From assembly GCA_050953425.1 (NCBI GenBank), contig JBMNMQ010000007.1, positions 232,408 to 296,407 of the forward strand: DNA of 64,000 bases, in the 5' to 3' direction. Below, piece by piece: positions 616 to 19,377 of this stretch (the first letter of the stretch is position 1; every line of letters starts with the position of its first letter). The position numbers and the translations under genes are program-made. This DNA comes from Anaerovoracaceae bacterium. Lineage in GTDB: Bacteria; Bacillota; Clostridia; Peptostreptococcales; Anaerovoracaceae. The notes below the pieces were generated by a model that saw only the letters and a list, made by a program, of their open reading frames with translations, searched no databases and was not told where the DNA came from.

Positions 616-1186
616 TCGTTTCCCTTTCTACCTGATCCTCGCAGCTGCGCATGGCGAGGATCGTTTCTTCGAAGAGTTCGTCGAGCTCCCAGCCCAGCAT
701 GGCGGCGCCGTCGCGGATGACGTCGCGGCTGCAGCCGGCGGCGAACTTTTTATCCTTGAACTTTTTGCGCAGAGATTTGACGGGCATGTCCTTCGTGCTC
801 CGGGAAGGCCGCATCAGCGCGCTGGCGCCGATCAGGCCGGTCAGCTCGTCGACGGCGTAGAGGGCGCGCTCCATCTCGTGCTCCGGCTTGACGTCGGAGC
901 AGACGTTGTAGCCGTGGGAAACCACGGCATGGACAAAGTCCTCGTCGGCATCGATCTCGGCCAGCAGCTGCGGGGCCCTGACGCAGTGCTCGTCGGGGAA
1001 CTGCTCAAAGTCGACATCGTGCAGAAGACCGACAAGCCCCCAGAAGTCGGCTTCCCCGCCGAATCCCATCGATTCGGCGAAATATCGCATGACACCCTCC
1101 ACGGTCAGTGCGTGGCGGATGTGAAACGGATCCTGATTGTATTTCAGCAGCAGATCCAGCGCCTGCTTCCTGGTTATTTCTCCCAT
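599..1186 (-). CDS. HD-domain phosphohydrolase
   Basis: 195-aa ORF with H..HD metal-binding motifs (HALTVEGVM...LLHDVD). An aaggag RBS precedes the ATG at 1186. It overlaps the downstream PP-loop gene by 17 nt. Confidence 0.7.
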   Translation of the reverse strand: MGEITRKQALDLLLKYNQDPFHIRHALTVEGVMRYFAESMGFGGEADFWGLVGLLHDVDFEQFPDEHCVRAPQLLAEIDADEDFVHAVVSHGYNVCSDVKPEHEMERALYAVDELTGLIGASALMRPSRSTKDMPVKSLRKKFKDKKFAAGCSRDVIRDGAAMLGWELDELFEETILAMRSCEDQVERETNELAG

Positions 1187-1261: not shown

Positions 1262-2701
1262 TCAATCGACGGAGGCGCGCCCGGGCGGGCGGGATCCGGC
1301 TTTCGCAGCGGCGCGAAGTCCGGCTTCACCGTCTCTCTCATCCCGGCGCCGCCCGGCTCTGCCGTCTGCCGCGTCCGGGCCGCGGTCGGCCCGGTTCGCT
1401 GCCGCCGCATCCGGTCGCGGTTCGATCCTGCCGTCCGCCGCATCCGGTCGCGGTTCGGCCCTGCCGTCCGCCGCGTCCGGTCGCGGTTCGGCCCTGCCGT
1501 CCGCCGCGTCCTGACAGGCTCCGTCCTGCAGATTGTGCATGGCGTGATTGATTTCCTCGAGACGAACGATGAGAAACATCTGCATTTCGGCATCGATGGC
1601 GTCTTCGATGCCGAGCAGCTCGCGGATCCGGGCGATGCGGTAGCGGACGGTGTTGCTGTGCTGGTAGAGCCGGGCGGCCGTCGCCTTGATGTCGCCGCGG
1701 CAGTGCACATAGGCGCGCATTGTTTTGCAGTAGGCAGTGCCGTGCTCGCGGTCGTGTGTCTGCACGCGGTTCAGCAGCTCGCCGTAACAGGCGCGCACCC
1801 AGTGGCTGCGGCGCAGCGGGCAGAGAAATTTGGCGGTGCCGATGTCCCGATAAAAGCTGTATTCTGTTCGGTCGATGGAACTGACGACGGCGGCGTAGAG
1901 AGCTTCCTGCATGGCGGTGCCGGCGGTGGAGAGCTGGGTGTGGTAATTGCTGAGGCCGAGGGCAAAGACGGCGGGATCGATGTGAATCAGTTCGCGCAGT
2001 TCCCGGATGCCCCGCAGCACGGCATCGCGGCCGCGGCTGTCGGTGTAGATAATCAGGAAGCCGTGCGCCGTCTGCATAACGGTGTGGCTGGCTTCCGGCG
2101 GCAGGCCGCTGGTGGAGACCCTGCGGTAATACTGGCTGGCGTAATCGCTGAGGATCTGGTCGCTGTCATCGCGGGAACGCGGCAGCGCGAAAGCGCAGAC
2201 CAGCTCGTTGTGGAAATAGGGGTTGATTTCCCGGGCGATCATCTCCGCTTCCACGCCGCTGACGTTGCCGCTGATCAGCTGCCGCGCCTTTCTGGTGGCA
2301 GACACGTTGATTTCGCCGGCTGTCAGGGAGCTGCGGATGACATAGACGAGATCGACGATCGGCGTTTCGGAAAAGAAGAAAATCGGCGTGTGCAGGCGGT
2401 TGGCCGCACCGATGACCGCGTCGGGAAGGCGATGAAAGTAGGTCGTGCGGATGCAGAGCGCGGCGAGCCGTTTTTTCAGCAGCGCGGTGAGAACCGGTTC
2501 GAGGAGTTCCGGCGCGTTGCGGTAGGCGGAGAGGGTGGTGATCACCATGTCGCCGGGATGAAAGCCGCGATCCAGCGATTCTCCGGTTTCGCATTCGAAG
2601 AGCGCGGCGGCGCGCACGTGGTTGTTGAGCCCGCTGCGATCGGTGATCAGCGTGAAATGCTTAAAGACGGGATGGGACATCATTTCTTCGATTGTGATCA
2701 T
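1262..2701 (-). CDS. PucR-family transcriptional regulator with a low-complexity, repeat-encoded C-terminal tail
   Basis: 479 aa. PucR-like architecture with a C-terminal HTH (TVRYRIARIRELLGIED). After the HTH there is a ~90-aa tail built from DAADGRAEPRP repeats. Confidence 0.75.
   Translation of the reverse strand: MITIEEMMSHPVFKHFTLITDRSGLNNHVRAAALFECETGESLDRGFHPGDMVITTLSAYRNAPELLEPVLTALLKKRLAALCIRTTYFHRLPDAVIGAANRLHTPIFFFSETPIVDLVYVIRSSLTAGEINVSATRKARQLISGNVSGVEAEMIAREINPYFHNELVCAFALPRSRDDSDQILSDYASQYYRRVSTSGLPPEASHTVMQTAHGFLIIYTDSRGRDAVLRGIRELRELIHIDPAVFALGLSNYHTQLSTAGTAMQEALYAAVVSSIDRTEYSFYRDIGTAKFLCPLRRSHWVRACYGELLNRVQTHDREHGTAYCKTMRAYVHCRGDIKATAARLYQHSNTVRYRIARIRELLGIEDAIDAEMQMFLIVRLEEINHAMHNLQDGACQDAADGRAEPRPDAADGRAEPRPDAADGRIEPRPDAAAANRADRGPDAADGRAGRRRDERDGEAGLRAAAKAGSRPPGRASVD
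1401..1511. repeat. 33-bp direct tandem repeat, about 3.3 copies, inside the 3' end of the PucR-family gene
   Basis: The unit gccgcatccggtcgcggttcg(a/g)(t/c)cctgccgtcc repeats head-to-tail. On the minus strand it encodes DAADGRAEPRP repeats. Confidence 0.8.
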
Positions 2702-11871: not shown

Positions 11872-12066
11872 TTATTTTTCCTCCAGCGATTTTTCCACCT
11901 CGTCCATGCGCCCCAGCACCAGTTCTTCGGGCAGGCTGACCTGCCCGCATTTGGGACAGCGGGGTACCTTGTGGCGAAAGTTCTTGTTGAGATAGGTGAA
12001 CTGGACGTCGATCTCCTCCAGCTCCACTTTGCACCGGTCACACAATAATTTCCGTTTTTCTGCCAT
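11872..12066 (-). CDS. YgiT-type (MqsA N-terminal-like) zinc-finger protein, 64 aa
   Basis: CDRC...x20...CPKCGQ with a spacing that matches the YgiT-type finger family as I recall it. A strong RBS (ggaggagg) is present, and the ATG lies 29 nt inside the 3' end of the upstream 761-aa gene, so the two are translationally coupled. Confidence 0.6.
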   Translation of the reverse strand: MAEKRKLLCDRCKVELEEIDVQFTYLNKNFRHKVPRCPKCGQVSLPEELVLGRMDEVEKSLEEK

Positions 12067-14323
12067 TGAAGACCTCCTCCAGTTCGATGTGCATGCGATG
12101 CGTGTAGAGATTGACGATCGTGTAAGTATCGCCGTCGACGGCGTATTCGACCCAGCAGGTGATGCTGCCGAGTTCGCGGTAGCATTTGTAATGCCCGTTT
12201 TCCGGATCGACCGTGCGGCGGCCGTGCTGTTCGCCGACGTCGAGGACGTCGCAGAGATCCGATTCGAGCAGGCGCAGGCCGTCCATCTTTTTCTGCACCT
12301 CCGGCGGGATCACCAGCCGGTAGCGGCTGGCGGCCGGCTTTTCTTTCATTTCCATGTTCAGCACCTCTTTCATCAGCCGTTCCTTGACGATGACCTTGTT
12401 GCGGCGGCGCTGCGTCTCCGTCGGCGGCTCGGCGCTGTCGTCGCTGTCGACGTCGAAGAGCGCGCCGAGGATGTGACGCACCGGTTTGCCGTGGTCGCGG
12501 AAGATATCGCGGCAGTTGATGCAGTAGACGAGATAGGGATCGTCCGACTGCGCGGCACGCTTTTCGTTGACGTAATCGACGTATTCATCGTCGGCGATCA
12601 GCGGAATGCCGCCGTAGCCGCAGCAGCCGGGCGGGCCGGGCAGCTCGTCGAGCGTTTCCGCGGAAGCCGCGGCCAGCTCGCGCACGGCCGCTTTCATGCC
12701 CTCGTCGTGGCGTGCCTGGCAGGGGTCAAAGACCGCCCAGTGTCCCGGCAGCGTCCCGCCGGCGGGGGTCTCAAAGCCCTCGTCCCGCAGCACTTCGTAG
12801 AGCGAAATCAGCGGGATCTGCGGCAGGTAGTCGCGCAGGTGCTGCATGCAGGAAGGGCAGGCGACGATCAGCTGCGGTGAGCCGATCGCTTCCCATTCCT
12901 GCCGCAGTTTGTCGATTTCCTCCTCGTGCAGGTCCTCCTCGCCGGCCCAGTCCGCGGGGATGCCGCAGCAGCGCAGCAGCAGACCGGTGCCCGGCGCGTG
13001 TTCGCGCAGCCACAGATAGGGCCGGATCACGTAGTCGGGATGAGCGCTGCCGAGCCAGCAGCCGGGGAAGAAGGCGCGCGCCCGGCCGCCGGCGACGTCT
13101 TCCCGCGGCTGCGGCGCGATCGAGAGGGCGGCGCAGGGACCGTTGGAGAACTCCATGTCGCGGATCCAGAACTGGTGCCAGCCGCCCGGTGTCTTGTTCT
13201 GCTGGTGCAGCAGATAGCGGGACTCCTTGAGCATGCTGTCGAGGTCGATGCCGGCCGGGCAGACTTCCTCGAAAATGCCGGTCTGGTTGCCGGTGCTGAT
13301 CAGCCGCTTGGCCGGGCTCTTGGAGACCAGCGACTCGCCGGCTTTGGTGGAAAAGAGGATATCGTCGCGCATTTCCCGCGGCCACTTGCCCATGTAGGGG
13401 GAGAGGTCACAGTAGACCTGACAGGGATTGCAGCGGCAGCGCAGACAGCGCTGTGCCTCGGCCCGGGCTTCCTCATCCGTAAAGAGACCGTTCTCGCCGC
13501 TCGCCGCCACTGCCAGCGCGGATTCCGTGAAGCTGGTGTCGAAGACGATTTTGGTCGGTTCCGGCGGCTGCGGAAAGACACCGCGGCCGGTGCGGAAGAA
13601 GTAGTCGATCGCCTCGGCGGCACGGATGCCGAAGGCCATCGCGTGGAGCGCATCGAGTCCGTGGACGCCGCCGCCGGCGAGGATAAAGCGCCCGCCTTCT
13701 TCAAAGACGCTCTCTTCAATGCCGAAATCGCTGCCGCCCGCGCCGGTGGCAATGAGGACGGCGTCAAAGTCGTCGACTTCTTCGAGCGAGGTGATTTCCC
13801 GGTCGCTGCGCAGTTCGTATTCTTCGTATTTGAACTGCAGCGCCAGATCGGCTTCAACCAGTTCCTCCGGCAGCTGTTCGTAGAGAGAGCCGCCGACCCG
13901 GCTGCCGCGCTCAAAGATCGTGACGGCGTATTTCTGCGCGGCCAGTTTGATCGTACAGGCCAGACCGGCAGCGCCGCCGCCGATGACGGCTGCGGTTTTC
14001 TTGCGTGCGGGCAGATTCAGCTCCGGCGGATCCTTGCGGCGGGCACCGGCGAGGCAGGTCTGCTCGAGTCGGTGCAGCTGCACCGGATCGTCGAGCTTGC
14101 TGCGGACGCAGGCCTGCTCGCAGATGCCGGGACAGAGCGCACTGGCGATGGCCGGAAACGCCATCGCCTTGCGCAGCTCCTTGTAGGCCGGATTATAGCG
14201 TCCGGCCTTCATCTTGTCCTGAAAGGCGAGGACGTTGACGCGGAACGGACAGGCGTCCTCGCAGAACGGCGGTTCGCTCTGCAGGCAGTGGTCAAACTGG
14301 TTGTAATAGGTCTCTACGGCCAT
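12038..14323 (-). CDS. Multi-domain iron-sulfur flavoprotein: GltD/PreT-like N-terminal Fe-S plus FAD/NAD(P) domain, 2x[4Fe-4S] ferredoxin, two HdrD-type CCG cysteine-rich domains, and a C-terminal DUF4258-like domain
   Basis: 761 aa, one continuous frame. Motifs: CPGICEQAC (GltD-like), the Rossmann motif AAVIGGGAAGLA, CLRCRCNPCQVYC and VCPAGID (ferredoxin), FFPGC..RCCG..ACPSC and FDPC..GCCG..YCINC (CCG domains). The C-terminal ~100 aa resembles the DUF4258 fold pattern. Confidence 0.75.
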   Translation of the reverse strand: MAVETYYNQFDHCLQSEPPFCEDACPFRVNVLAFQDKMKAGRYNPAYKELRKAMAFPAIASALCPGICEQACVRSKLDDPVQLHRLEQTCLAGARRKDPPELNLPARKKTAAVIGGGAAGLACTIKLAAQKYAVTIFERGSRVGGSLYEQLPEELVEADLALQFKYEEYELRSDREITSLEEVDDFDAVLIATGAGGSDFGIEESVFEEGGRFILAGGGVHGLDALHAMAFGIRAAEAIDYFFRTGRGVFPQPPEPTKIVFDTSFTESALAVAASGENGLFTDEEARAEAQRCLRCRCNPCQVYCDLSPYMGKWPREMRDDILFSTKAGESLVSKSPAKRLISTGNQTGIFEEVCPAGIDLDSMLKESRYLLHQQNKTPGGWHQFWIRDMEFSNGPCAALSIAPQPREDVAGGRARAFFPGCWLGSAHPDYVIRPYLWLREHAPGTGLLLRCCGIPADWAGEEDLHEEEIDKLRQEWEAIGSPQLIVACPSCMQHLRDYLPQIPLISLYEVLRDEGFETPAGGTLPGHWAVFDPCQARHDEGMKAAVRELAAASAETLDELPGPPGCCGYGGIPLIADDEYVDYVNEKRAAQSDDPYLVYCINCRDIFRDHGKPVRHILGALFDVDSDDSAEPPTETQRRRNKVIVKERLMKEVLNMEMKEKPAASRYRLVIPPEVQKKMDGLRLLESDLCDVLDVGEQHGRRTVDPENGHYKCYRELGSITCWVEYAVDGDTYTIVNLYTHRMHIELEEVFNGRKTEIIV

Positions 14324-14392
14324 CCCCTTTTTCCTCCTTCAAAAAATCTGCAGACCGCCGGAAGCGGTCTGCAGAGCACGTTAGTGAATTCT

Positions 14393-17269
14393 TTATTCGT
14401 CGGTCTTGATCGGATTCGCCTTGATGTTTTCGACTTCTTCCCAGAAATCGGAACCGAGGAAGTACTTCTTCGGCTTGAGCGGATCCTTTTCGCCCTTGGC
14501 CATCGCTTCGAGTCCGGCCTTGACCTTCGCCGGTGTTGCCGGGATTTCATAGACGCGCAGGCCGGTCGCGTTGTTGATCGCGTTGATGACGGCCATGTGG
14601 TCTGCCGACTGGAACGCTTCGGAAGCGCCGGAGGAACCGAACGGCCCTCTCTCGTCGTAGGCGTCGATGCCGATGTTGACGAGTTTGTCGGGAACATCCT
14701 TGATCGTCGGGACGCCGCAGCGGACCATGTTGTTGTCCTTCTTGACGTCTTCGTAGTTTTCACTGAGCGCGAAGCCGATCGCGTGCGAGACGCCGCCGTT
14801 GATCTGGCCTTCGACGGACTGACTGTTGCCCGGTCTGCCGATCCAGTAGACGGTGGTCATGCCGAGAACCTGCGTCTTGCCGGTCTTGACGTCGACTTCG
14901 ACTTCCGACATGAACAGCGAATAGGTATAGGCATAGGTCGGGTTGCCGGAACCGTCGTTCGGGTCGAGGTCGCAGAAGTAGTCCCATTCGCTGCGGGTGG
15001 TCCAGTTGCCCTCGTAGCGGGTCGGAATGCCTTCGTCGATCATTTCCTGATAGGTCCGGTAGGTGCCGTCCTCTTTGCGCATCGCGTTGGCGAGATTTTC
15101 CGCGGCCAGGATCGAGGCCTTGCCGTTGGCAAAGTGCGATCTGGAGCCGGCCGACTCGCCGGTGTTCGGACAGTACTTGCTGTCGTCCTGAACGAGGCGG
15201 ACGCAGTCCGGCGTGATGTCCGGGAAGTACGGCCGCAGCGCTTCCAGCGTGCAGACGAGGGAACCGGCGTCGCCGCCCTGTCCCTGATCCTGCCAGGTGT
15301 CGTATTTGACGAATTTCATGTCGCCCTCGAGTTCGATGGCGACGTTGGCTTCATCGACGTCACCGAGGCCGACGTTGTAGCCGCCCCAGGCGATGCCGAC
15401 GCCGCGACGCTTCTCCGGCGTGTCCTCGGCCTTGGCCCTGGCCACCGCTTCATCGTACAGCGGCTTCAGCTTCTTCATCATCTCTTCCATCGGGTACTGC
15501 AGGAACGGGTACTGGTTGAGGTTGTCCTGCCCCGGACGGGCGATGTTTCTCCAGCGGAACTCCCACGGATCGATGCCCGCCTTCTCGGCCAGCATGTCGA
15601 CCAGCGCTTCGCTGGCGGTGTAGGCCTGCGGTGCGCCGTAGCCGCGGTAGGCGGTGCCGAAGCAGTGGTTGGTGATGGCCACGCGAGCCAGACCTGCCGC
15701 ATTCGGGATATAATATGGATAGAACATGAAGCGAAGGATCTTGGTCAGCTTGTCGTCGCCCAGTTCCGGATAGGCACCGTGGTCGAGTCCGGCGTCGAAT
15801 TCGCCGGCCGTAAAGTGACCGTCCTTGTCGCAGGCGAGCTTGCCGTTGATGTAGCACGGCGAGCGCTTGCCGGACAGAGCCATGAAGGTGGCGTAGTCCA
15901 TGCCGATCGCGCACGGCTTGCCGGTGACCTTGGTGGCGATGCCGGCCATCGCATAGCTGTAGGCGGACATCGCCCAGCCGAACGAACCGCCGGTCGGGTT
16001 TTCGATGACGCGCAGCTTTTCGACCGGGATGCCGATCGCTTCGGCCATATCGTCGCGGTCAAAGTAGAGCGTCATGGTCTTGCAGTGGACGCAGAGGTTG
16101 TCGTCCTCGTCGTAGTAGGCCTGAATGGTATCGCCCTCGATGGAGCAGTGCGGCTCACGAGAGGAGTAGAAGCTGCCCTCGACGCTGTAGGCGGAGTCGT
16201 CGATGATGTCTTCGAGGTGTTCGTGGTCACCCTTCAGCACCGGCTGGATCGAGTAGATGTTCTGATCCATCGACGGGTGAATCGGCTTGGCGTCCGGTGC
16301 GACCGCTTCCAGATAGCTCATGTACTCCGGCAGCTGCTCGATTTCGACCTTGACTTTGGCGGCCGCCGCTTCGGCGTGCTTTCTGGTGTCGGCCGCGACC
16401 ATCGCGACAACGTCGCCGTAGCTGTAGATTTTCTTATCCTGAAGGATGGTATGGATCTGATCGAATTCCACGGTCCGCGGCGAGAACGTGTAAGCCATCA
16501 GGCGGTTGGCGCCGGGAACATCCTTGGCGGTGATAACCTTGTAGACGCCGGGCATCTTTTCCGCTTCGCTGTAATCGATCTTCTTGATGTTGGCGTGGCT
16601 GGTAATGCGCGGCTGTACCAGAGCAACCTTGAGGGTCTCGGCCGGCATGTGCAGCTCGACGTCGTCACCGTAGTCGCAGACGCCGCAGGCCTTGGCCATC
16701 GCGTTCGGACGAACCAGCGGCTTGCCGTAGAATCCGTCCTTGACGTCCTTGCTCCAGTCGTAGGTGATGTCTTCGTAGGTCTTTTCGCCTCTCATGATCG
16801 CGGCAGCGGCCATGACGGCGTCGACGATCTGCTTGTAGCCGGTGCAGCGGCAGATGTTGCGCTTTTTCTGGAACCAGTCTCTGACTTCTTCTCTGGTCGG
16901 ATCCGGGTTTTCCTCCAGCAGTGCATAGGCGGAAACGATGAAGCCCGGTACGCAGAAGCCGCACTGCACTGCGCCCAGATTGACCCAGGCATACTGCAGC
17001 GGATGCGGATGCCGCACGGTGCCGATGCCTTCGATGGTCAGCACTTCGCTGTATTCCTTGACATTCTTCATCTTCTTGGTGCAGGAACGTACAACTTTGC
17101 CGTCGAGAATGACGGAGCAGGAGCCGCAGACACCGGTACCGCAGCCGACCTTGGTCCCGGTCAGCCCGATGCGGCGCAGCACGTCGGACAGAGTGTCTTC
17201 CTGAGGATCACAGATAAACATGCGCTCGGCGCCATTGATCCTCAGAGTAAACTTGCTGTAGTTACTCAT
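14393..17269 (-). CDS. Molybdopterin-dependent aldehyde oxidoreductase (Mop-like; [2Fe-2S] domains fused to the xanthine-dehydrogenase-family Mo-binding subunit, no FAD subunit)
   Basis: 958 aa from the ATG at 17269 (ggagg RBS). The track's 963-aa ORF starts 5 codons earlier. N-terminus carries CGTGVCGSCSV and QCGFCVPGF..CRCTGY, the two [2Fe-2S] motifs. The rest is the Mo-binding aldehyde-oxidase / XDH-family domain. Confidence 0.85.
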   Translation of the reverse strand: MSNYSKFTLRINGAERMFICDPQEDTLSDVLRRIGLTGTKVGCGTGVCGSCSVILDGKVVRSCTKKMKNVKEYSEVLTIEGIGTVRHPHPLQYAWVNLGAVQCGFCVPGFIVSAYALLEENPDPTREEVRDWFQKKRNICRCTGYKQIVDAVMAAAAIMRGEKTYEDITYDWSKDVKDGFYGKPLVRPNAMAKACGVCDYGDDVELHMPAETLKVALVQPRITSHANIKKIDYSEAEKMPGVYKVITAKDVPGANRLMAYTFSPRTVEFDQIHTILQDKKIYSYGDVVAMVAADTRKHAEAAAAKVKVEIEQLPEYMSYLEAVAPDAKPIHPSMDQNIYSIQPVLKGDHEHLEDIIDDSAYSVEGSFYSSREPHCSIEGDTIQAYYDEDDNLCVHCKTMTLYFDRDDMAEAIGIPVEKLRVIENPTGGSFGWAMSAYSYAMAGIATKVTGKPCAIGMDYATFMALSGKRSPCYINGKLACDKDGHFTAGEFDAGLDHGAYPELGDDKLTKILRFMFYPYYIPNAAGLARVAITNHCFGTAYRGYGAPQAYTASEALVDMLAEKAGIDPWEFRWRNIARPGQDNLNQYPFLQYPMEEMMKKLKPLYDEAVARAKAEDTPEKRRGVGIAWGGYNVGLGDVDEANVAIELEGDMKFVKYDTWQDQGQGGDAGSLVCTLEALRPYFPDITPDCVRLVQDDSKYCPNTGESAGSRSHFANGKASILAAENLANAMRKEDGTYRTYQEMIDEGIPTRYEGNWTTRSEWDYFCDLDPNDGSGNPTYAYTYSLFMSEVEVDVKTGKTQVLGMTTVYWIGRPGNSQSVEGQINGGVSHAIGFALSENYEDVKKDNNMVRCGVPTIKDVPDKLVNIGIDAYDERGPFGSSGASEAFQSADHMAVINAINNATGLRVYEIPATPAKVKAGLEAMAKGEKDPLKPKKYFLGSDFWEEVENIKANPIKTDE

Positions 17270-17284
17270 GAATGTAGCCTCCAA

Positions 17285-17604
17285 ATCGATATGTTGGGTG
17301 ATAAAAATGATACGTTGTTACAGCTTACCGCGGCTGCGAAAACAAAAACCTCTGCGTTTGCAAAGGTTCTGGACAGCGTCCCAGACTGCCGGCTGTCAGC
17401 GGCCGCCGCGGGAGTTCGCATTTCTCCGATCCTTTCCAAACATAGCAGGTCGCTTCGCTTTCACGAAAGACCCGTCAAACTGCGTTCCTGGCATCCAGCG
17501 CTGCACAGCACGGGGACGCGGCAGATCCGTCAGTCTCGGATGCGATATGGTGGTTTTTTTTTGATACGCAAATAATCGCGAGTGCCTGTAACGTACTATT
17601 AAAT
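17285..17604 (-). promoter_or_regulatory. ~320-nt structured 5' leader (candidate Moco/Tuco-type riboswitch with a terminator expression platform)
   Basis: The long leader contains several hairpins (cuuucgugaaag, cggagaaaugcgaacuccc, cugggacgcuguccag) and the intrinsic terminator. The downstream genes encode a molybdoenzyme. Confidence 0.4.
17338..17370 (-). terminator. Intrinsic terminator inside the 5' leader of the aldehyde oxidoreductase operon
   Basis: Minus-strand RNA AACCUUUGC-AAAC-GCAGAGGUU followed by UUUUGUUUUC. A 9-bp stem with one G.U pair, about 70 nt upstream of the start codon. Confidence 0.7.
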
Positions 17605-17610
17605 ATACCA

Positions 17611-17640
17611 GTTATCTGCAGGAAACTCAACGCCTGCGGG
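17611..17640 (-). promoter_or_regulatory. Sigma-70-like promoter for the leader / aldehyde oxidoreductase operon
   Basis: On the minus strand: TTGAGT-17nt-TATATT. Confidence 0.4.
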
Positions 17641-17715
17641 CGAATCAATTTCAAGAAATGTGTATTAATTTTGAGAATTTTTGGAGAGGCAATGATATTG
17701 TTGCTGCACCAACAA

Positions 17716-17910
17716 TCATTTGACGGCGTAAAAGCGCAGCCAGCAGATAAACGCAAAGAGCAGGCCGCCGAAGATGGTGCGGGAAATGACGCCGTCCATA
17801 ATTGCCGGTACTTTCCAGAGCAGCAGTCCGACAGCCAGAGCAACCGGGATCAGGATGCCCCAGAATTTTTTGTGGTCAATTGGTCGCATTTGCGTTTTCC
17901 TCCGATCCAT
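17716..17910 (-). CDS. Small hydrophobic membrane protein (hypothetical)
   Basis: 64 aa with two predicted TM helices (ILIPVALAVGLLLW, FGGLLFAFICWL). An alternative internal start, MRPIDHKK, has a ggagga RBS. Confidence 0.4.
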   Translation of the reverse strand: MDRRKTQMRPIDHKKFWGILIPVALAVGLLLWKVPAIMDGVISRTIFGGLLFAFICWLRFYAVK

Positions 17911-18150: not shown

Positions 18151-19377
18151 ATGTTCACAGATCATATCAGCAAGGAAGAAGCGCTGGCACGCATCCGCGC
18201 TGCCTGGCAGCCGCAGATCAAAAACGAAGAAGTGCCGCTGGCGGAGGCGGCCGGCAGAGTGTGCGCGGAGGACTGCCGCGCCCGTGTCTCACTGCCGGTC
18301 GTGCGTGCCGCCGGCATGGACGGCATCTGTGTCAATTTCGATCTTCTCGCCGACGGTATCCCCGATACTTCGGCATGGCGGCGCGGCCGCGACTACGATC
18401 GCGCCGATACCGGCGATGATTTTGACGACCGCTTTGATACCGTGCTGCCGATCGAATGGATCCGTTCCCGCGAGGACGGCGGGATCGACATCGACATGCC
18501 GGCCGGGCGGCCGGGCGGCGGCCCGAAACTTCACCGCGGCATGAATGTGCAGCCGGCCGGCGGCATGCTGGAACAGGGAACGCTGCTGGTGCACGGCGGC
18601 ACGGCGCTGACGCCGCTCGATCTCGCGGCGCTGGCGGCCGGCGGATACGGCAGCGTGCGCGTGCTGCGCCGGCCCCGCATCGCCTTTCTGGCTGCCGGCA
18701 GTGAACTGGTGGAGGCCGGGGCACCGCTGCGGCGGGGGCAGAATTACGACGCCAATACACCGCTGGCGCGGGCGCTGCTGGAAGAGATGGGCGCCGCGGT
18801 GACCTGCGGCGGCATCCTCGGCGACGATCGGGAAGCGCTGGGCAGCTGGATCGACACGCAGCTGCCGCAGCAGGATCTCGTCCTCGTCAGCGGCGGCTCC
18901 TCAAAGGGCGAGGAGGATTACAACACCCGCCTGCTGGCGGCGCGCGGAGAACTGCTCTTCCACGGCGTGCTGGCGGCGCCGGGCCGGCCGATGAGCGCCG
19001 TCGTCTGCGGCGGGCGCACCGTGCTCCTCAATCTCGCCGGCCCGACGCTGGCTTCCTGGCACGGCCTCGAGTGGTGCGTGCGCGAGCTGATTCGCGACTG
19101 GTACGGCGGCGCCCTGCCGCGGGAGAACGAGGTCGAGGCCGTTCTGGAAGCTGACCTGCCGGCACCGCCGCTGTCGCTGATCGTGCGGCTCATCGTCCGC
19201 CGCGGCGAGGACGGCCGGCTTCTGGCACGGCCGATTCTCGGCAGTCGGCCGGCCGGCGGCGGCCGCCCCGGCCACCCCTGCATTGCCCAGCCCGATGCCA
19301 ACGCGGCGCTGGTGACGCGGCCCGGTGAACCGGCGCCGCAGAAGGGCGACCGCGTGCGCGTCAGGCTGGTGCGCTGA
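18151..19377 (+). CDS. moeA: Molybdopterin molybdotransferase
   Basis: 408 aa with MoeA/gephyrin-E architecture. The GGSSKGEEDY motif region is present. aggagg RBS. Confidence 0.85.
   Translation: MFTDHISKEEALARIRAAWQPQIKNEEVPLAEAAGRVCAEDCRARVSLPVVRAAGMDGICVNFDLLADGIPDTSAWRRGRDYDRADTGDDFDDRFDTVLPIEWIRSREDGGIDIDMPAGRPGGGPKLHRGMNVQPAGGMLEQGTLLVHGGTALTPLDLAALAAGGYGSVRVLRRPRIAFLAAGSELVEAGAPLRRGQNYDANTPLARALLEEMGAAVTCGGILGDDREALGSWIDTQLPQQDLVLVSGGSSKGEEDYNTRLLAARGELLFHGVLAAPGRPMSAVVCGGRTVLLNLAGPTLASWHGLEWCVRELIRDWYGGALPRENEVEAVLEADLPAPPLSLIVRLIVRRGEDGRLLARPILGSRPAGGGRPGHPCIAQPDANAALVTRPGEPAPQKGDRVRVRLVR

What the first reader, a model, noticed from the sequence alone, without database searches (positions are those of the whole stretch)
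17285..17604. 320-nt structured leader with a perfect intrinsic terminator upstream of the molybdoenzyme gene: candidate Moco/Tuco riboswitch
The minus-strand leader contains a 9-bp stem, AACCUUUGC-AAAC-GCAGAGGUU, followed by UUUUGUUUUC and lying ~70 nt before the RBS and ATG. Several more hairpins sit upstream, and a sigma-70-like promoter (TTGAGT-17-TATATT) lies at 17611-17640. A terminator inside a 5' UTR is the hallmark of a riboswitch or attenuator expression platform. The known cis-regulatory RNA associated with molybdoenzymes and Moco biosynthesis genes, including in Clostridia, is the Moco (or tungsten-variant Tuco) riboswitch. I cannot verify the Moco consensus from memory.
Basis: partly seen in the sequence, partly recalled or inferred. 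Interest (0 to 1): 0.6.

Follow-up and report, generated by a model that had tools for sequence, protein, structure and literature searches.

The report
Divergent Moco/Tuco riboswitch with terminator
The leader of a molybdenum-enzyme (aldehyde oxidoreductase) operon carries a diverged copy of the known molybdenum/tungsten-cofactor riboswitch followed by a transcription terminator: a known kind of regulator that scores below the standard database cut-off.

Summary
A sigma-70-like promoter (17630-17602), a ~325-nt minus-strand leader and an 11-bp terminator hairpin with a U-tract (17370-17336) precede the aldehyde oxidoreductase gene (ATG 17269).

Rfam reports nothing at gathering score, and RF01055 reaches only 13.6 bits (cut-off 36). 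But most orthologous genes in Anaerovoracaceae carry strong P3-less RF01055 aptamers (54-82 bits) at the same position. Two covariance models built only from those relatives hit the window once, at 17554-17413(-): 24.9 bits (E 3e-4) and 28.8 bits (E 3e-6).

The window copy keeps P1, P2, P4 with its GAAA loop, CCGAG and UUUGGAAAGGA. That is 30 of 31 model pairs and 24 of 28 conserved columns.

It is atypical in three ways. P2 is a 58-nt GC-rich hairpin with no recognisable tetraloop receptor, CCUCCC has become CCUGCU, and no closer relative exists to test covariation.

The aptamer's 3' core is complementary to the terminator's 5' arm and loop. This predicts read-through without ligand and termination with ligand, an OFF switch.

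In passing: relatives carry a second P3-less subclass, missed by Rfam at gathering score, upstream of tungsten-type AFOR genes, with apparent ON logic.

The parts
17602..17630 (-). Sigma-70-like promoter: -35 TTGAGT (17630-17625), 17-nt spacer with TG, -10 TATATT (17607-17602). The inferred transcription start is near 17595.
   Evidence: 9 of 12 consensus matches, extended -10. This is a consensus match only; the transcription start is not mapped.
17413..17554 (-). Aptamer of the Moco/Tuco (RF01055) class, P3-less form.
   Evidence: RF01055 scores 13.6 bits over the full model. Model R1 scores 24.9 bits, E 3e-4 in 593 kb. Model R2 scores 28.8 bits, E 3e-6, the only hit in the window. 30 of 31 model pairs and 24 of 28 conserved columns are kept.
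17416..17545 (-). P1. Inner helix: A17541-C17538 with G17432-U17429 (AUCC/GGAU). Outer helix: U17545-C17542 with G17419-A17416. The 3' strand carries an 8-9-nt bulge. J1/2 is G17537 A17536, part of CCGAG.
   Evidence: AUCC/GGAU against CUCC/GGAG in relatives is a compensatory pair type seen in 15 of 49 family members. An alternative register, UCCGA (17540-17536) with UCGGA (17429-17425), appears in the MFE fold.
17478..17535 (-). P2: a 58-nt GC-rich hairpin with a GA/AA internal loop, a CC bulge and a CC/U loop. It replaces the ~40-nt P2 of relatives. The CCUAAG..UAUGG or CCUUCG..CAUGG tetraloop-receptor bulge is not recognisable.
   Evidence: dG -25.8, z -2.44. Alignments. The receptor is described in PMC2408646.
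17447..17473 (-). P4: 11 bp with one bulged C and a GAAA tetraloop (17462-17459). Only 4 nt (17477-17474) separate P2 from P4, so there is no P3.
   Evidence: Compared with the nearest relative (L084), five P4 pairs differ, one on both sides, and none is broken.
17433..17446 (-). Core after P4: GCU AUGUUU GG AAA, where relatives have CCC GUGUUU GG AAA. P5 is either C17445-G17436 plus U17444.G17437, or G17446.G17436 (mismatch) plus C17445-G17437. G17446 could instead pair with C17474 and lengthen P4 by one pair.
   Evidence: The Rfam register is supported by the CC/GG to GC/GC exchange in the second subclass.
17379..17413 (-). Spacer hairpin between the aptamer and the terminator. It forms the tip of the long antiterminator helix in the ligand-free fold.
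   Evidence: predicted only.
17355..17442 (-). Antiterminator: 17442-17425 (UGUUUGGAAAGGAUCGGA, i.e. the P5 3' side, J5/1 and the P1 3' strand) pairs with 17373-17355 (UCCAGAACCUUUGCAAACG, i.e. the terminator 5' arm and loop). It cannot coexist with P1/P5 or with the terminator.
   Evidence: pair list. (duplex -16.4 kcal/mol, z -3.85, 1 of 300 shuffles as good). (transcript ending at 17356: -78.2 against -63.8 kcal/mol for the P1-closed aptamer).
17336..17370 (-). Intrinsic terminator: 11-bp stem (17370-17360 with 17355-17345), loop AAAC, U-rich tail to ~17336.
   Evidence: It resembles the terminators after the aptamers of L017, L018, L084 and L012 (AGACCUUUCCGC...GCGGAGGGUCUUU).
17267..17282 (-). 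RBS GGAGG (17282-17278) and start codon ATG (17269-17267) of the regulated operon.
11872..17269 (-). Regulated operon. It comprises a molybdopterin-dependent aldehyde oxidoreductase (14393-17269, 958 aa), a pyridine nucleotide-disulfide oxidoreductase/dicluster protein (12038-14323, 761 aa) and a DVU_1557-family redox protein (11872-12066, 64 aa).
   Evidence: Pfam. NCBIfam NF045668 at 1133 bits (cut-off 1100), NF045663 at 623 bits, NF045645 at 79.6 bits. Gene calls.

Best explanation
The leader holds a functional but diverged member of the molybdenum/tungsten-cofactor riboswitch class (Rfam RF01055), in the form that lacks stem P3. It controls the aldehyde oxidoreductase operon by transcription termination.

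Proposed mechanism:
- Transcription starts near 17595.
- The aptamer (17554-17413) folds as P1, a long P2, P4 with a GAAA loop, and a short P5 around a conserved junction.
- Without ligand, the aptamer's 3' segment (UGUUUGGAAAGGAUCGGA) pairs with the 5' arm and loop of the downstream terminator. The terminator cannot form and the operon is transcribed.
- With the pterin cofactor bound, that segment is held in P1/P5. The terminator (17370-17345 plus U-tract) forms and transcription stops about 70 nt before the start codon. This is an OFF switch.

What is shown: homology of the aptamer, retention of its helices and most core bases, the terminator, and the mutually exclusive pairing.

What is inferred: ligand binding, the identity of the ligand (Moco or Tuco), and the direction of the switch in vivo.
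For: (1) The element sits where orthologous genes carry bona fide RF01055 aptamers. 17 of 20 loci score 54-82 bits, with more. The nearest homologue (81% protein identity, L084) has a canonical P3-less aptamer plus terminator.

(2) Models built without the window sequence hit it and nothing else in the window. R1 gives 24.9 bits, E 3e-4 in 593 kb. R2 gives 28.8 bits, E 3e-6 in 64 kb. The RF01055 match is full length at the same coordinates.

(3) 30 of 31 model pairs are standard pairs and 24 of 28 columns conserved at >=85% are kept. Protein identity to the nearest relative is only 81%, and the spacer between aptamer and terminator (about 45 nt in the window, about 115 nt in L084) shows no resemblance by eye. 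P4 differs from L084 at five pairs without breaking any.

(4) The family structure itself covaries strongly: 90.7% of cells paired, 26 of 31 pairs with double changes, 0 of 500 shuffles as good.

(5) 27 of 28 plus-strand aptamers upstream of the orthologous gene are followed by a terminator-like hairpin. Its 5' arm tends to complement GGAAAGG (mean z -1.76). The window has one of the strongest such complementarities (z -3.85).

(6) Predicted energies favour the antiterminator at the decision point: -78.2 against -63.8 kcal/mol.

(7) The context is molybdenum cofactor metabolism: an XO-family molybdoenzyme downstream and moeA divergent upstream.
Against: - The RF01055 score is far below the gathering score (13.6 against 36). 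The scores against my own models are the lowest among credible hits.
- P2 lacks the tetraloop-receptor bulge although P4 keeps GAAA. Regulski et al. saw this combination in only 2 RNAs.
- Two bases of the near-invariant CCUCCC are changed. In the register that covariation supports, the first P5 pair becomes G.G.
- The window lineage is isolated. All contigs found have an identical leader, and the next homologue is 81% identical. The new P2 and core therefore cannot be tested by covariation.
- A metagenome scan for the variant core found only chance matches.
- Some orthologues have lost the riboswitch altogether (L090-L092), so it is dispensable.
- No ligand-binding or transcript data are available.
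Confidence: 0.8

Rival explanations
1. Decaying relic. The aptamer descends from a Moco/Tuco riboswitch but no longer binds ligand. The terminator and antiterminator then give a fixed, ligand-independent level of read-through, most likely constitutively ON because the antiterminator is predicted to be more stable.
For: - Lowest score among homologues.
- Loss of the P2 receptor while GAAA is retained.
- Two changes in CCUCCC plus changes at two other conserved columns.
- Related genomes have lost the element entirely (L090-L092) or carry weak copies that Rfam misses at gathering score (L006, L023).
- An alternative P1 register that sequesters CCGA is the MFE fold of the isolated aptamer.
Against: - Protein identity to the nearest relative is only 81% and the spacers show no resemblance by eye. 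Even so, 24 of 28 core columns, 30 of 31 pairs, the GAAA loop, the terminator and a strong antiterminator complementarity (z -3.85) are all retained. This argues for selection over most of the divergence.
- The new P2 is a well-formed hairpin rather than eroded sequence.
- A recent loss of function cannot be excluded.
Confidence: 0.12
2. Variant with altered specificity. The changed core (G17446, U17444), the changed J2/4 and the remodelled P2 retune the aptamer to a different pterin cofactor form, such as Moco versus Tuco or a dinucleotide form. The terminator mechanism stays the same.
For: - The changes lie in the most conserved junction segment.
- A G at the first CCC position is otherwise seen in the subclass linked to tungsten-type AFOR genes. 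This shows that the segment varies between functional subclasses.
Against: - There is a single lineage and no recurrence of the variant core elsewhere.
- The window keeps GGAAAGG, the GAAA loop and the OFF-type platform of the canonical subclass.
- No 3-D structure or ligand assay for this class turned up in my literature searches, so the role of these bases is unknown.
Confidence: 0.07
3. An unrelated attenuator, for example protein-mediated, T-box-like or leader-peptide based, that only resembles the Moco motif by chance.
For: Rfam reports nothing at gathering score. The whole-leader folding z-score is unremarkable (-1.62).
Against: - Independent models give E 3e-4 and 3e-6 at exactly the RF01055 coordinates.
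- The position is orthologous to strong RF01055 members.
- The other permissive Rfam matches are eukaryotic or irrelevant families at E of 1.9 to 6.6.
- The only leader ORF (17266-17439, TTG start) starts inside the conserved UUUGG core, and I saw no GGAGG-like Shine-Dalgarno sequence upstream of it.
Confidence: 0.02

Closest known systems
Moco RNA motif / molybdenum-tungsten cofactor riboswitch, P3-lacking form (Rfam RF01055; Regulski et al. 2008, PMC2408646)
   Same: The multistem junction with P1, P2, P4 and P5 is present. CCGAG, GGG...GAAA...CCU and UUUGGAAAGGA are conserved and P3 is absent. An intrinsic terminator serves as expression platform, and the element lies next to Moco-related genes.
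   Different: The score is below Rfam's gathering score. P2 is about 20 nt longer and has no recognisable receptor bulge. CCUCCC has become CCUGCU. The element precedes an XO-family (molybdenum-type) aldehyde oxidoreductase, whereas Regulski et al. linked P3-less RNAs mainly to tungsten-related or MPT-synthesis genes.
Orthologous aptamers of Anaerovoracaceae, e.g. L084 (nearest homologue), L017, L018, L012
   Same: They sit at the same place before the same three-gene operon. They share the AUCC/GGAU P1, the GAAA loop, the GGAAAGGAU core, a terminator of the form AGA(A)CCUUU..., and OFF-type antiterminator logic.
   Different: These relatives score 94-118 bits against R1 (54-68 bits against RF01055 for those scanned) and keep the CCUUCG..CAUGG receptor and CCUCCC. 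Their spacers are 70-120 nt, against about 45 nt in the window.
E. coli moaA Moco riboswitch (the tested representative of RF01055)
   Same: It belongs to the same aptamer family and represses on cofactor accumulation (PMC2408646).
   Different: The E. coli RNA has P3, acts on the ribosome binding site through P1 rather than through a terminator, and controls Moco biosynthesis genes rather than a Moco-using enzyme.
AFOR-associated P3-less subclass seen in related genomes (L019, L039, L106-L118)
   Same: It has the same overall architecture and is detected by the same models. It has G at the first position after CCU, as the window does.
   Different: It has a GCGA or GUGA loop, a short P2 and GCRAAGGAG instead of GGAAAGGAG. 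The terminator's 5' arm is the aptamer's own 3' strand, which gives ON logic. It precedes ferredoxin plus tungsten-type AFOR genes. The window element does not belong to this subclass.

Membership tests
RF01055 Moco/Tuco riboswitch aptamer | Score at or above Rfam's curated gathering score (36 bits). This is an operational criterion. | tested here: not met
   No hit at gathering score in the window. The permissive scan gives 13.6 bits.
RF01055 Moco/Tuco riboswitch aptamer | Significant match to a covariance model of the family, built independently of the candidate. | tested here: met
   R1 (17 orthologous aptamers) gives 24.9 bits, E 3e-4 in 593 kb. R2 (42 aptamers) gives 28.8 bits, E 3e-6, the sole hit in 64 kb. 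E-values are rough because calibration is shortened.
RF01055 Moco/Tuco riboswitch aptamer | Secondary structure: P1, P2, P4 and P5 around a central junction. | tested here: met
   30 of 31 model pairs are standard pairs. The unconstrained MFE fold of 17554-17413 reproduces P2, P4 and a P5-like hairpin. The register of P5 is ambiguous.
RF01055 Moco/Tuco riboswitch aptamer | Conserved junction nucleotides (CCGAG; GGG/CCU at the base of P4; CCUCCC; UUUGGAAAGGA). | tested here: inconclusive
   24 of 28 columns conserved at >=85% match. CCGAG, GGG, CCU and UUUGGAAAGGA are kept, but CCC has become GCU and the C after P2 has become U. The functional tolerance of these changes is unknown.
RF01055 Moco/Tuco riboswitch aptamer | GNRA tetraloop on P4 with a tetraloop receptor in a P2 bulge. 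This is common but not universal: Regulski et al. list exceptions. | tested here: not met
   The GAAA loop is present (17462-17459). The receptor consensus CCUAAG/UAUGG or CCUUCG/CAUGG is absent from P2.
RF01055 Moco/Tuco riboswitch aptamer | Location in the 5' leader of genes for Moco synthesis, Mo/W transport or Moco/Tuco-dependent enzymes, with an expression platform. | tested here: met
   The element lies upstream of an NF045668 molybdopterin-dependent aldehyde oxidoreductase, with moeA divergent. A terminator plus antiterminator is present.
RF01055 Moco/Tuco riboswitch aptamer | Descent from, or orthology with, accepted members. | tested here: met
   The same position before the orthologous operon carries RF01055 hits of 54-82 bits in 17 of 20 loci, and a canonical P3-less aptamer (94.4 bits against model R1; not scanned with Rfam) in the nearest homologue.
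RF01055 Moco/Tuco riboswitch aptamer | Binding of, or response to, Moco or Tuco. | not testable with these tools
   No transcript or binding data are available. The ligand is labile and is tested only genetically in the literature (abstract).
P3-lacking ('Tuco-type') subgroup of RF01055 | Absence of stem P3 between P2 and P4. | tested here: met
   Only 4 nt (17477-17474) separate P2 from P4. The P3 positions are deleted in the RF01055 alignment.
P3-lacking ('Tuco-type') subgroup of RF01055 | Association with tungsten-cofactor genes, the correlation reported by Regulski et al. | tested here: not met
   The regulated enzyme belongs to the xanthine-oxidase (molybdenum) family. No AFOR or tungstate-transporter gene was found among the window ORFs examined. 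The rest of the genome was not available.

The most novel reading that the evidence does not exclude
The window aptamer may be a retuned sensor rather than merely a diverged copy. Its altered junction (CCU-GCU, changed J2/4, no receptor) would then belong to a system in which P3-less pterin-cofactor riboswitches control molybdenum-type and tungsten-type aldehyde oxidoreductases reciprocally. The canonical subclass would switch the XO-family enzyme OFF. A subclass that Rfam misses at gathering score would switch the tungsten-type AFOR ON. The discriminating bases would lie in P5/J5-1, the very segment altered in the window.
Probability: 0.1. Interest if true: 0.6.

Novelty: new member of a known kind. 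Interest (0 to 1): 0.3.

Why it matters
For annotation: this is a real cis-regulatory RNA that Rfam's gathering score misses. Standard pipelines (NCBI's PGAP, for instance, uses Rfam) would probably leave the operon without a regulator.

For riboswitch biology, it offers two things.
- It is a natural aptamer that has lost the P2 tetraloop receptor and changed two near-invariant junction bases, yet keeps an intact termination/antitermination platform. That makes it a useful test case for which features are essential in a class for which my literature searches found no structure or direct binding assay.
- The comparison set shows P3-less aptamers placed before a molybdenum-type enzyme with OFF logic, and a distinct subclass before tungsten-type AFOR genes with ON logic. 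This bears on the open question of how these RNAs tell Moco from Tuco.

Tried and rejected
- Rfam at gathering score over the whole window gave no hits. On its own this would have wrongly refuted the finding.
- The other permissive Rfam matches (SNORD83, mir-81, U12, C0719; E 1.9-6.6) were rejected as chance.
- The whole-leader folding z-score (-1.62) is not informative.
- I searched for closer relatives to test covariation of the new P2 and core. The exact-protein look-up found only contigs with an identical leader. The protein search found nothing between 81% and 100% identity.
- The metagenome scan with CCGAG-N60-90-CCTGCTNNNTTTGGAAAGGA returned 12 stretches. All look like coding sequence and none matches the model. 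The window's own contigs were not among them.
- The MAFFT alignment of the 17 aptamers was not structurally consistent. I used the RNAalifold-derived structure, edited by hand, and then realigned to the model.
- A leader-peptide reading of ORF 17266-17439 (TTG start) was rejected. It starts inside the conserved core and I saw no GGAGG-like Shine-Dalgarno sequence upstream.
- No second aptamer was found before the divergent moeA.
- No tungsten-related gene was found among the window ORFs examined.
- Literature searches found no 3-D structure or base-level ligand contacts for this class.

Full report
**What is in the sequence.** On the minus strand, a promoter-like site lies at 17630-17602: TTGAGT, a 17-nt spacer with TG, then TATATT. 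A ~325-nt leader follows, down to the RBS GGAGG (17282-17278) and the ATG at 17269. AACCUUUGC (17368-17360), loop AAAC and GCAGAGGUU (17355-17347) pair, and two further pairs bring the stem to 11. A UUUGUUUUC tail follows. The predicted stability is -12.7 to -13.8 kcal/mol. Three corrections are minor. One pair is a G.U wobble, the tail has one U fewer than written, and the promoter coordinates were about 10 nt off.

**The gene context.** The downstream gene (14393-17269) is a 958-aa Mop-type, xanthine-oxidase-family aldehyde oxidoreductase. It matches NCBIfam NF045668 at 1133 bits. Next come an NF045663 flavoprotein/dicluster protein (12038-14323) and a DVU_1557-family redox protein (11872-12066). 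The moeA gene (18151-19377) is divergent upstream, followed by a histidine operon.

At Rfam's gathering scores the whole window gives nothing. In a permissive scan of 17150-17800, RF01055 gives a full-length match at 17554-17413(-). It scores only 13.6 bits against a cut-off of 36, with E = 2.8 over 4227 families. The alignment keeps UCCGAG, GGG...GAAA...CCU and UUUGGAAAGGA. It deletes P3 and fails on P2. Taken alone this is suggestive, not convincing.

**Comparative evidence.**
- A search of one genome per species with the oxidoreductase returned 80 loci. Most are Anaerovoracaceae (Family XIII) at 68-78% identity. The others are near 60%.
- Rfam at gathering score found RF01055 in 17 of the first 20 loci (54-82 bits), 100-330 nt upstream of the orthologous gene. 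P3 is deleted in the three alignments printed. It found 10 more sites in 15 further loci.
- The window's own protein occurs only on contigs with an identical leader. NCBI labels it as coming from an Anaerovoracaceae MAG.
- The next homologue is 81% identical. Its leader (L084-L089) has a canonical P3-less aptamer and the terminator AGACCUUUCCGC...GCGGAGGGUCUUUAUUUUUU. The window's terminator, AGAACCUUUGC...GCAGAGGUUUUUGUUUU, clearly resembles it.
- A 78% homologue (L090-L092) has no riboswitch at all.

**Independent models.**
- I built a covariance model (R1) from the 17 orthologous aptamers, without the window sequence. Against the window plus 82 loci (593 kb) it found 47 credible sites (30-118 bits). 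It also gave one marginal hit (L051, 15.1 bits, E 0.33). The window scored 24.9 bits, E 3e-4, at exactly 17554-17413(-).
- A second model (R2) was built from 42 aptamers realigned to R1, again without the window. It scores the window element at 28.8 bits, E 3e-6. No other hit in the 64 kb reaches E <= 10.
- E-values are rough, as the tool warns, but the coordinates agree across three models.
- The family structure is well supported: 90.7% of cells are paired, 26 of 31 pairs show changes on both sides, and 0 of 500 shuffles do as well. Slid controls drop to 34-49% paired. That alignment was fitted to the model, which favours it.

**Anatomy of the window copy.** In the model alignment, 30 of 31 pairs are standard pairs and 24 of 28 columns conserved at >=85% are matched.
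- P1 is AUCC (17541-17538) with GGAU (17432-17429), plus an outer UCGC/GCGA helix.
- P2 is 17535-17478.
- Four nucleotides link P2 to P4, so there is no P3.
- P4 is 17473-17447, with GAAA at 17462-17459.
- The core then runs CCU GCU AUGUUU GG AAA GGAU.
- Compared with L084, five P4 pairs have changed, one on both sides, and none is broken.

**How the window copy deviates.**
- P2 is a 58-nt GC-rich hairpin (dG -25.8, z -2.44). Relatives have about 40 nt with the CCUAAG/UAUGG or CCUUCG/CAUGG bulge. Regulski et al. identify that bulge as the receptor for the P4 GAAA loop. They report only two GAAA-bearing RNAs without it.
- CCUCCC has become CCUGCU. In the Rfam P5 register the first P5 pair becomes G.G. 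That register is supported by a CC/GG to GC/GC exchange in a second subclass. In the shifted register, C-G and U.G can form. G17446 could also pair with C17474 and lengthen P4 by one pair.
- Each change has a precedent somewhere in the family. The third-position U occurs in L064 and L078, and the first-position G in the second subclass.
- These features explain the low scores. They also leave open whether ligand binding is intact.

**Expression platform and likely mechanism.**
- The aptamer's 3' segment 17442-17425 comprises the P5 3' side, the AAA junction and the P1 3' strand. It is complementary to 17373-17355, the terminator's 5' arm and loop. The pairing is GUUUG/CAAAC, AAAGG/CCUUU, UC/GA and GGA/UCC, with two 1x1 mismatches and a bulge.
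- The duplex energy is -16.4 kcal/mol, z = -3.85 against shuffles of the partner, and 1 of 300 shuffles does as well.
- For a transcript ending at 17356, the antiterminator fold is predicted at -78.2 kcal/mol against -63.8 for the P1-closed aptamer. With the complete terminator (end at 17345) the values are -82.5 against -77.2.
- The same logic recurs in relatives. 27 of 28 plus-strand aptamers are followed by a terminator-like hairpin whose 5' arm tends to complement GGAAAGG (mean z -1.76). This holds for two groups whose terminator sequences differ.
- The default is therefore read-through. Ligand binding holds the 3' segment in P1/P5, lets the terminator form and switches the operon OFF.
- Shown: the competing pairings and their conservation. 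Inferred: ligand dependence and direction in vivo.

**Which ligand.** Regulski et al. proposed that P3-less RNAs sense the tungsten cofactor. Here the P3-less form precedes a molybdenum-family enzyme, with OFF logic. The same authors suggested that P3-less RNAs before putative Moco enzymes might repress them when Tuco is plentiful. That reading fits the OFF logic, but nothing here tests it. I found no tungsten-related gene among the window ORFs examined.

**A second subclass, outside the window.**
- The models also detect a distinct P3-less subclass. It has CUCCGAU, a short P2 without receptor, a GCGA or GUGA loop, and CCU-GCC-AUUGU-GCRAAGGAG.
- Rfam does not report it at gathering score.
- In L019, L020 and L039 it precedes a ferredoxin gene plus a tungsten-type aldehyde:ferredoxin oxidoreductase (AFOR). 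That operon is divergent from the molybdenum-type enzyme.
- All 13 further AFOR loci I fetched carry it just upstream of the ferredoxin gene. Five of them (L114-L118) have a Tup/Mod-like ABC transporter upstream, and ThiF, MobB or MoeA genes lie downstream in most.
- Twelve distinct sequences are 93.4% paired, and 13 of 31 pairs show compensatory double changes.
- Its terminator uses the aptamer's own 3' strand (GUGCRAAGGAG...) as its 5' arm. Ligand binding should therefore prevent termination, an ON switch.
- This suggests reciprocal control of tungsten-type and molybdenum-type aldehyde oxidoreductases. It also points to P5/J5-1 as a possible discriminating region. It is a lead, not a result about the window.

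**Rival explanations.**
- A decaying relic is the main rival (about 0.12). It is supported by the deviations and by loss of the element in some relatives. It is opposed by retention of nearly all core bases, all helices, the terminator and a strong antiterminator. All of this persists although the nearest relative is only 81% identical in protein and the spacers show no resemblance by eye.
- A variant with altered specificity is possible but unsupported beyond the location of the changes (about 0.07).
- An unrelated attenuator is very unlikely (about 0.02).

**Verdict.** This is a diverged, sub-threshold member of the known Moco/Tuco riboswitch class in its P3-less form, with a termination-type OFF platform. 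It is a new member of a known kind, and interest is modest (0.3). The side observation on the AFOR-linked subclass may deserve its own study.

Noticed in passing
L019:1711-1822(-), L020:1713-1824(-), L039:1636-1747(-), L022:1702-1813(-), L026:1692-1805(-), L014:1586-1698(+), L106-L110:1933-2046(+), L111-L113:1925-2036(+), L114-L118:~1883-1995(+): A second P3-less aptamer subclass. It has a GCGA or GUGA loop, a short P2 without receptor, and the core CCU-GCC...GCRAAGGAG. Rfam RF01055 does not report it at gathering score, but my model scores it at 43-60 bits. It lies directly upstream of ferredoxin plus tungsten-type AFOR operons in 16 loci. The terminator's 5' arm is the aptamer's own 3' strand, which implies an ON switch. 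This contrasts with the OFF platform before the XO-type oxidoreductase.
   Followed up: partly
L032:215-332 and 463-579; L069:446-562 and 696-812 (plus strand, upstream of the oxidoreductase gene): Two canonical P3-less aptamers lie in tandem before the orthologous gene (67-68 bits each with Rfam). L022 carries one aptamer of each subclass in series on the minus strand (1702-1813 and 1307-1438).
   Followed up: no
L106-L110:1638-1749(-): An extra copy of the AFOR-linked subclass on the strand opposite the neighbouring called genes, back to back with the copy that precedes the ferredoxin gene. Its target is unclear.
   Followed up: no
L090-L092 (78% homologue), ~400 nt upstream of the gene: These orthologues have no riboswitch and a short leader. 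The upstream DNA holds two or three direct repeats of a GC-rich unit of ~90 nt (...CGCCUGCCAGGCCGCCUC...GCCCCACGGG...), inside a called 99-122-aa minus-strand ORF with no family.
   Followed up: no
window 17536-17540 with 17425-17429 (minus strand): UCCGA, part of the conserved CCGAG, can pair with UCGGA just 3' of P1. This alternative P1 register is the MFE fold of the isolated aptamer and would mask the junction bases. It is absent from relatives.
   Followed up: partly
window 17716-17889 (-) and 17690-17719: A called 57-aa ORF with no family and a hydrophobic C-terminus ends 86 nt upstream of the promoter's -35 element. An inverted repeat (AAUGAUUGUUG...CAACAAUAUCAUU) overlaps its stop codon (17718-17716), with no U-tract.
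   Followed up: no
L022, L026, L039, L014: between the AFOR-side aptamer and the oxidoreductase gene: Inverted copies of CCUGYGCACUUUUUUU / AAAAAAGUGCGCAGG lie ~110-150 nt apart. In L022, L026 and L039 they flank a short sequence that resembles the oxidoreductase gene's own start region (..CAAGCAAGCAAUUAUAUGAAUUUAAAGA). This may be a remnant of a duplication or a bidirectional terminator.
   Followed up: no
L060:1171-1293(-), L068:1184-1306(-), L072:1187-1309(-): In Synergistaceae-type loci, a canonical aptamer sits on the opposite strand. It precedes a MoCF_biosynth-domain protein (L060, L068) or a formate-dehydrogenase-like Fer2_4/Molybdop_Fe4S4 protein (L072), not the oxidoreductase.
   Followed up: partly
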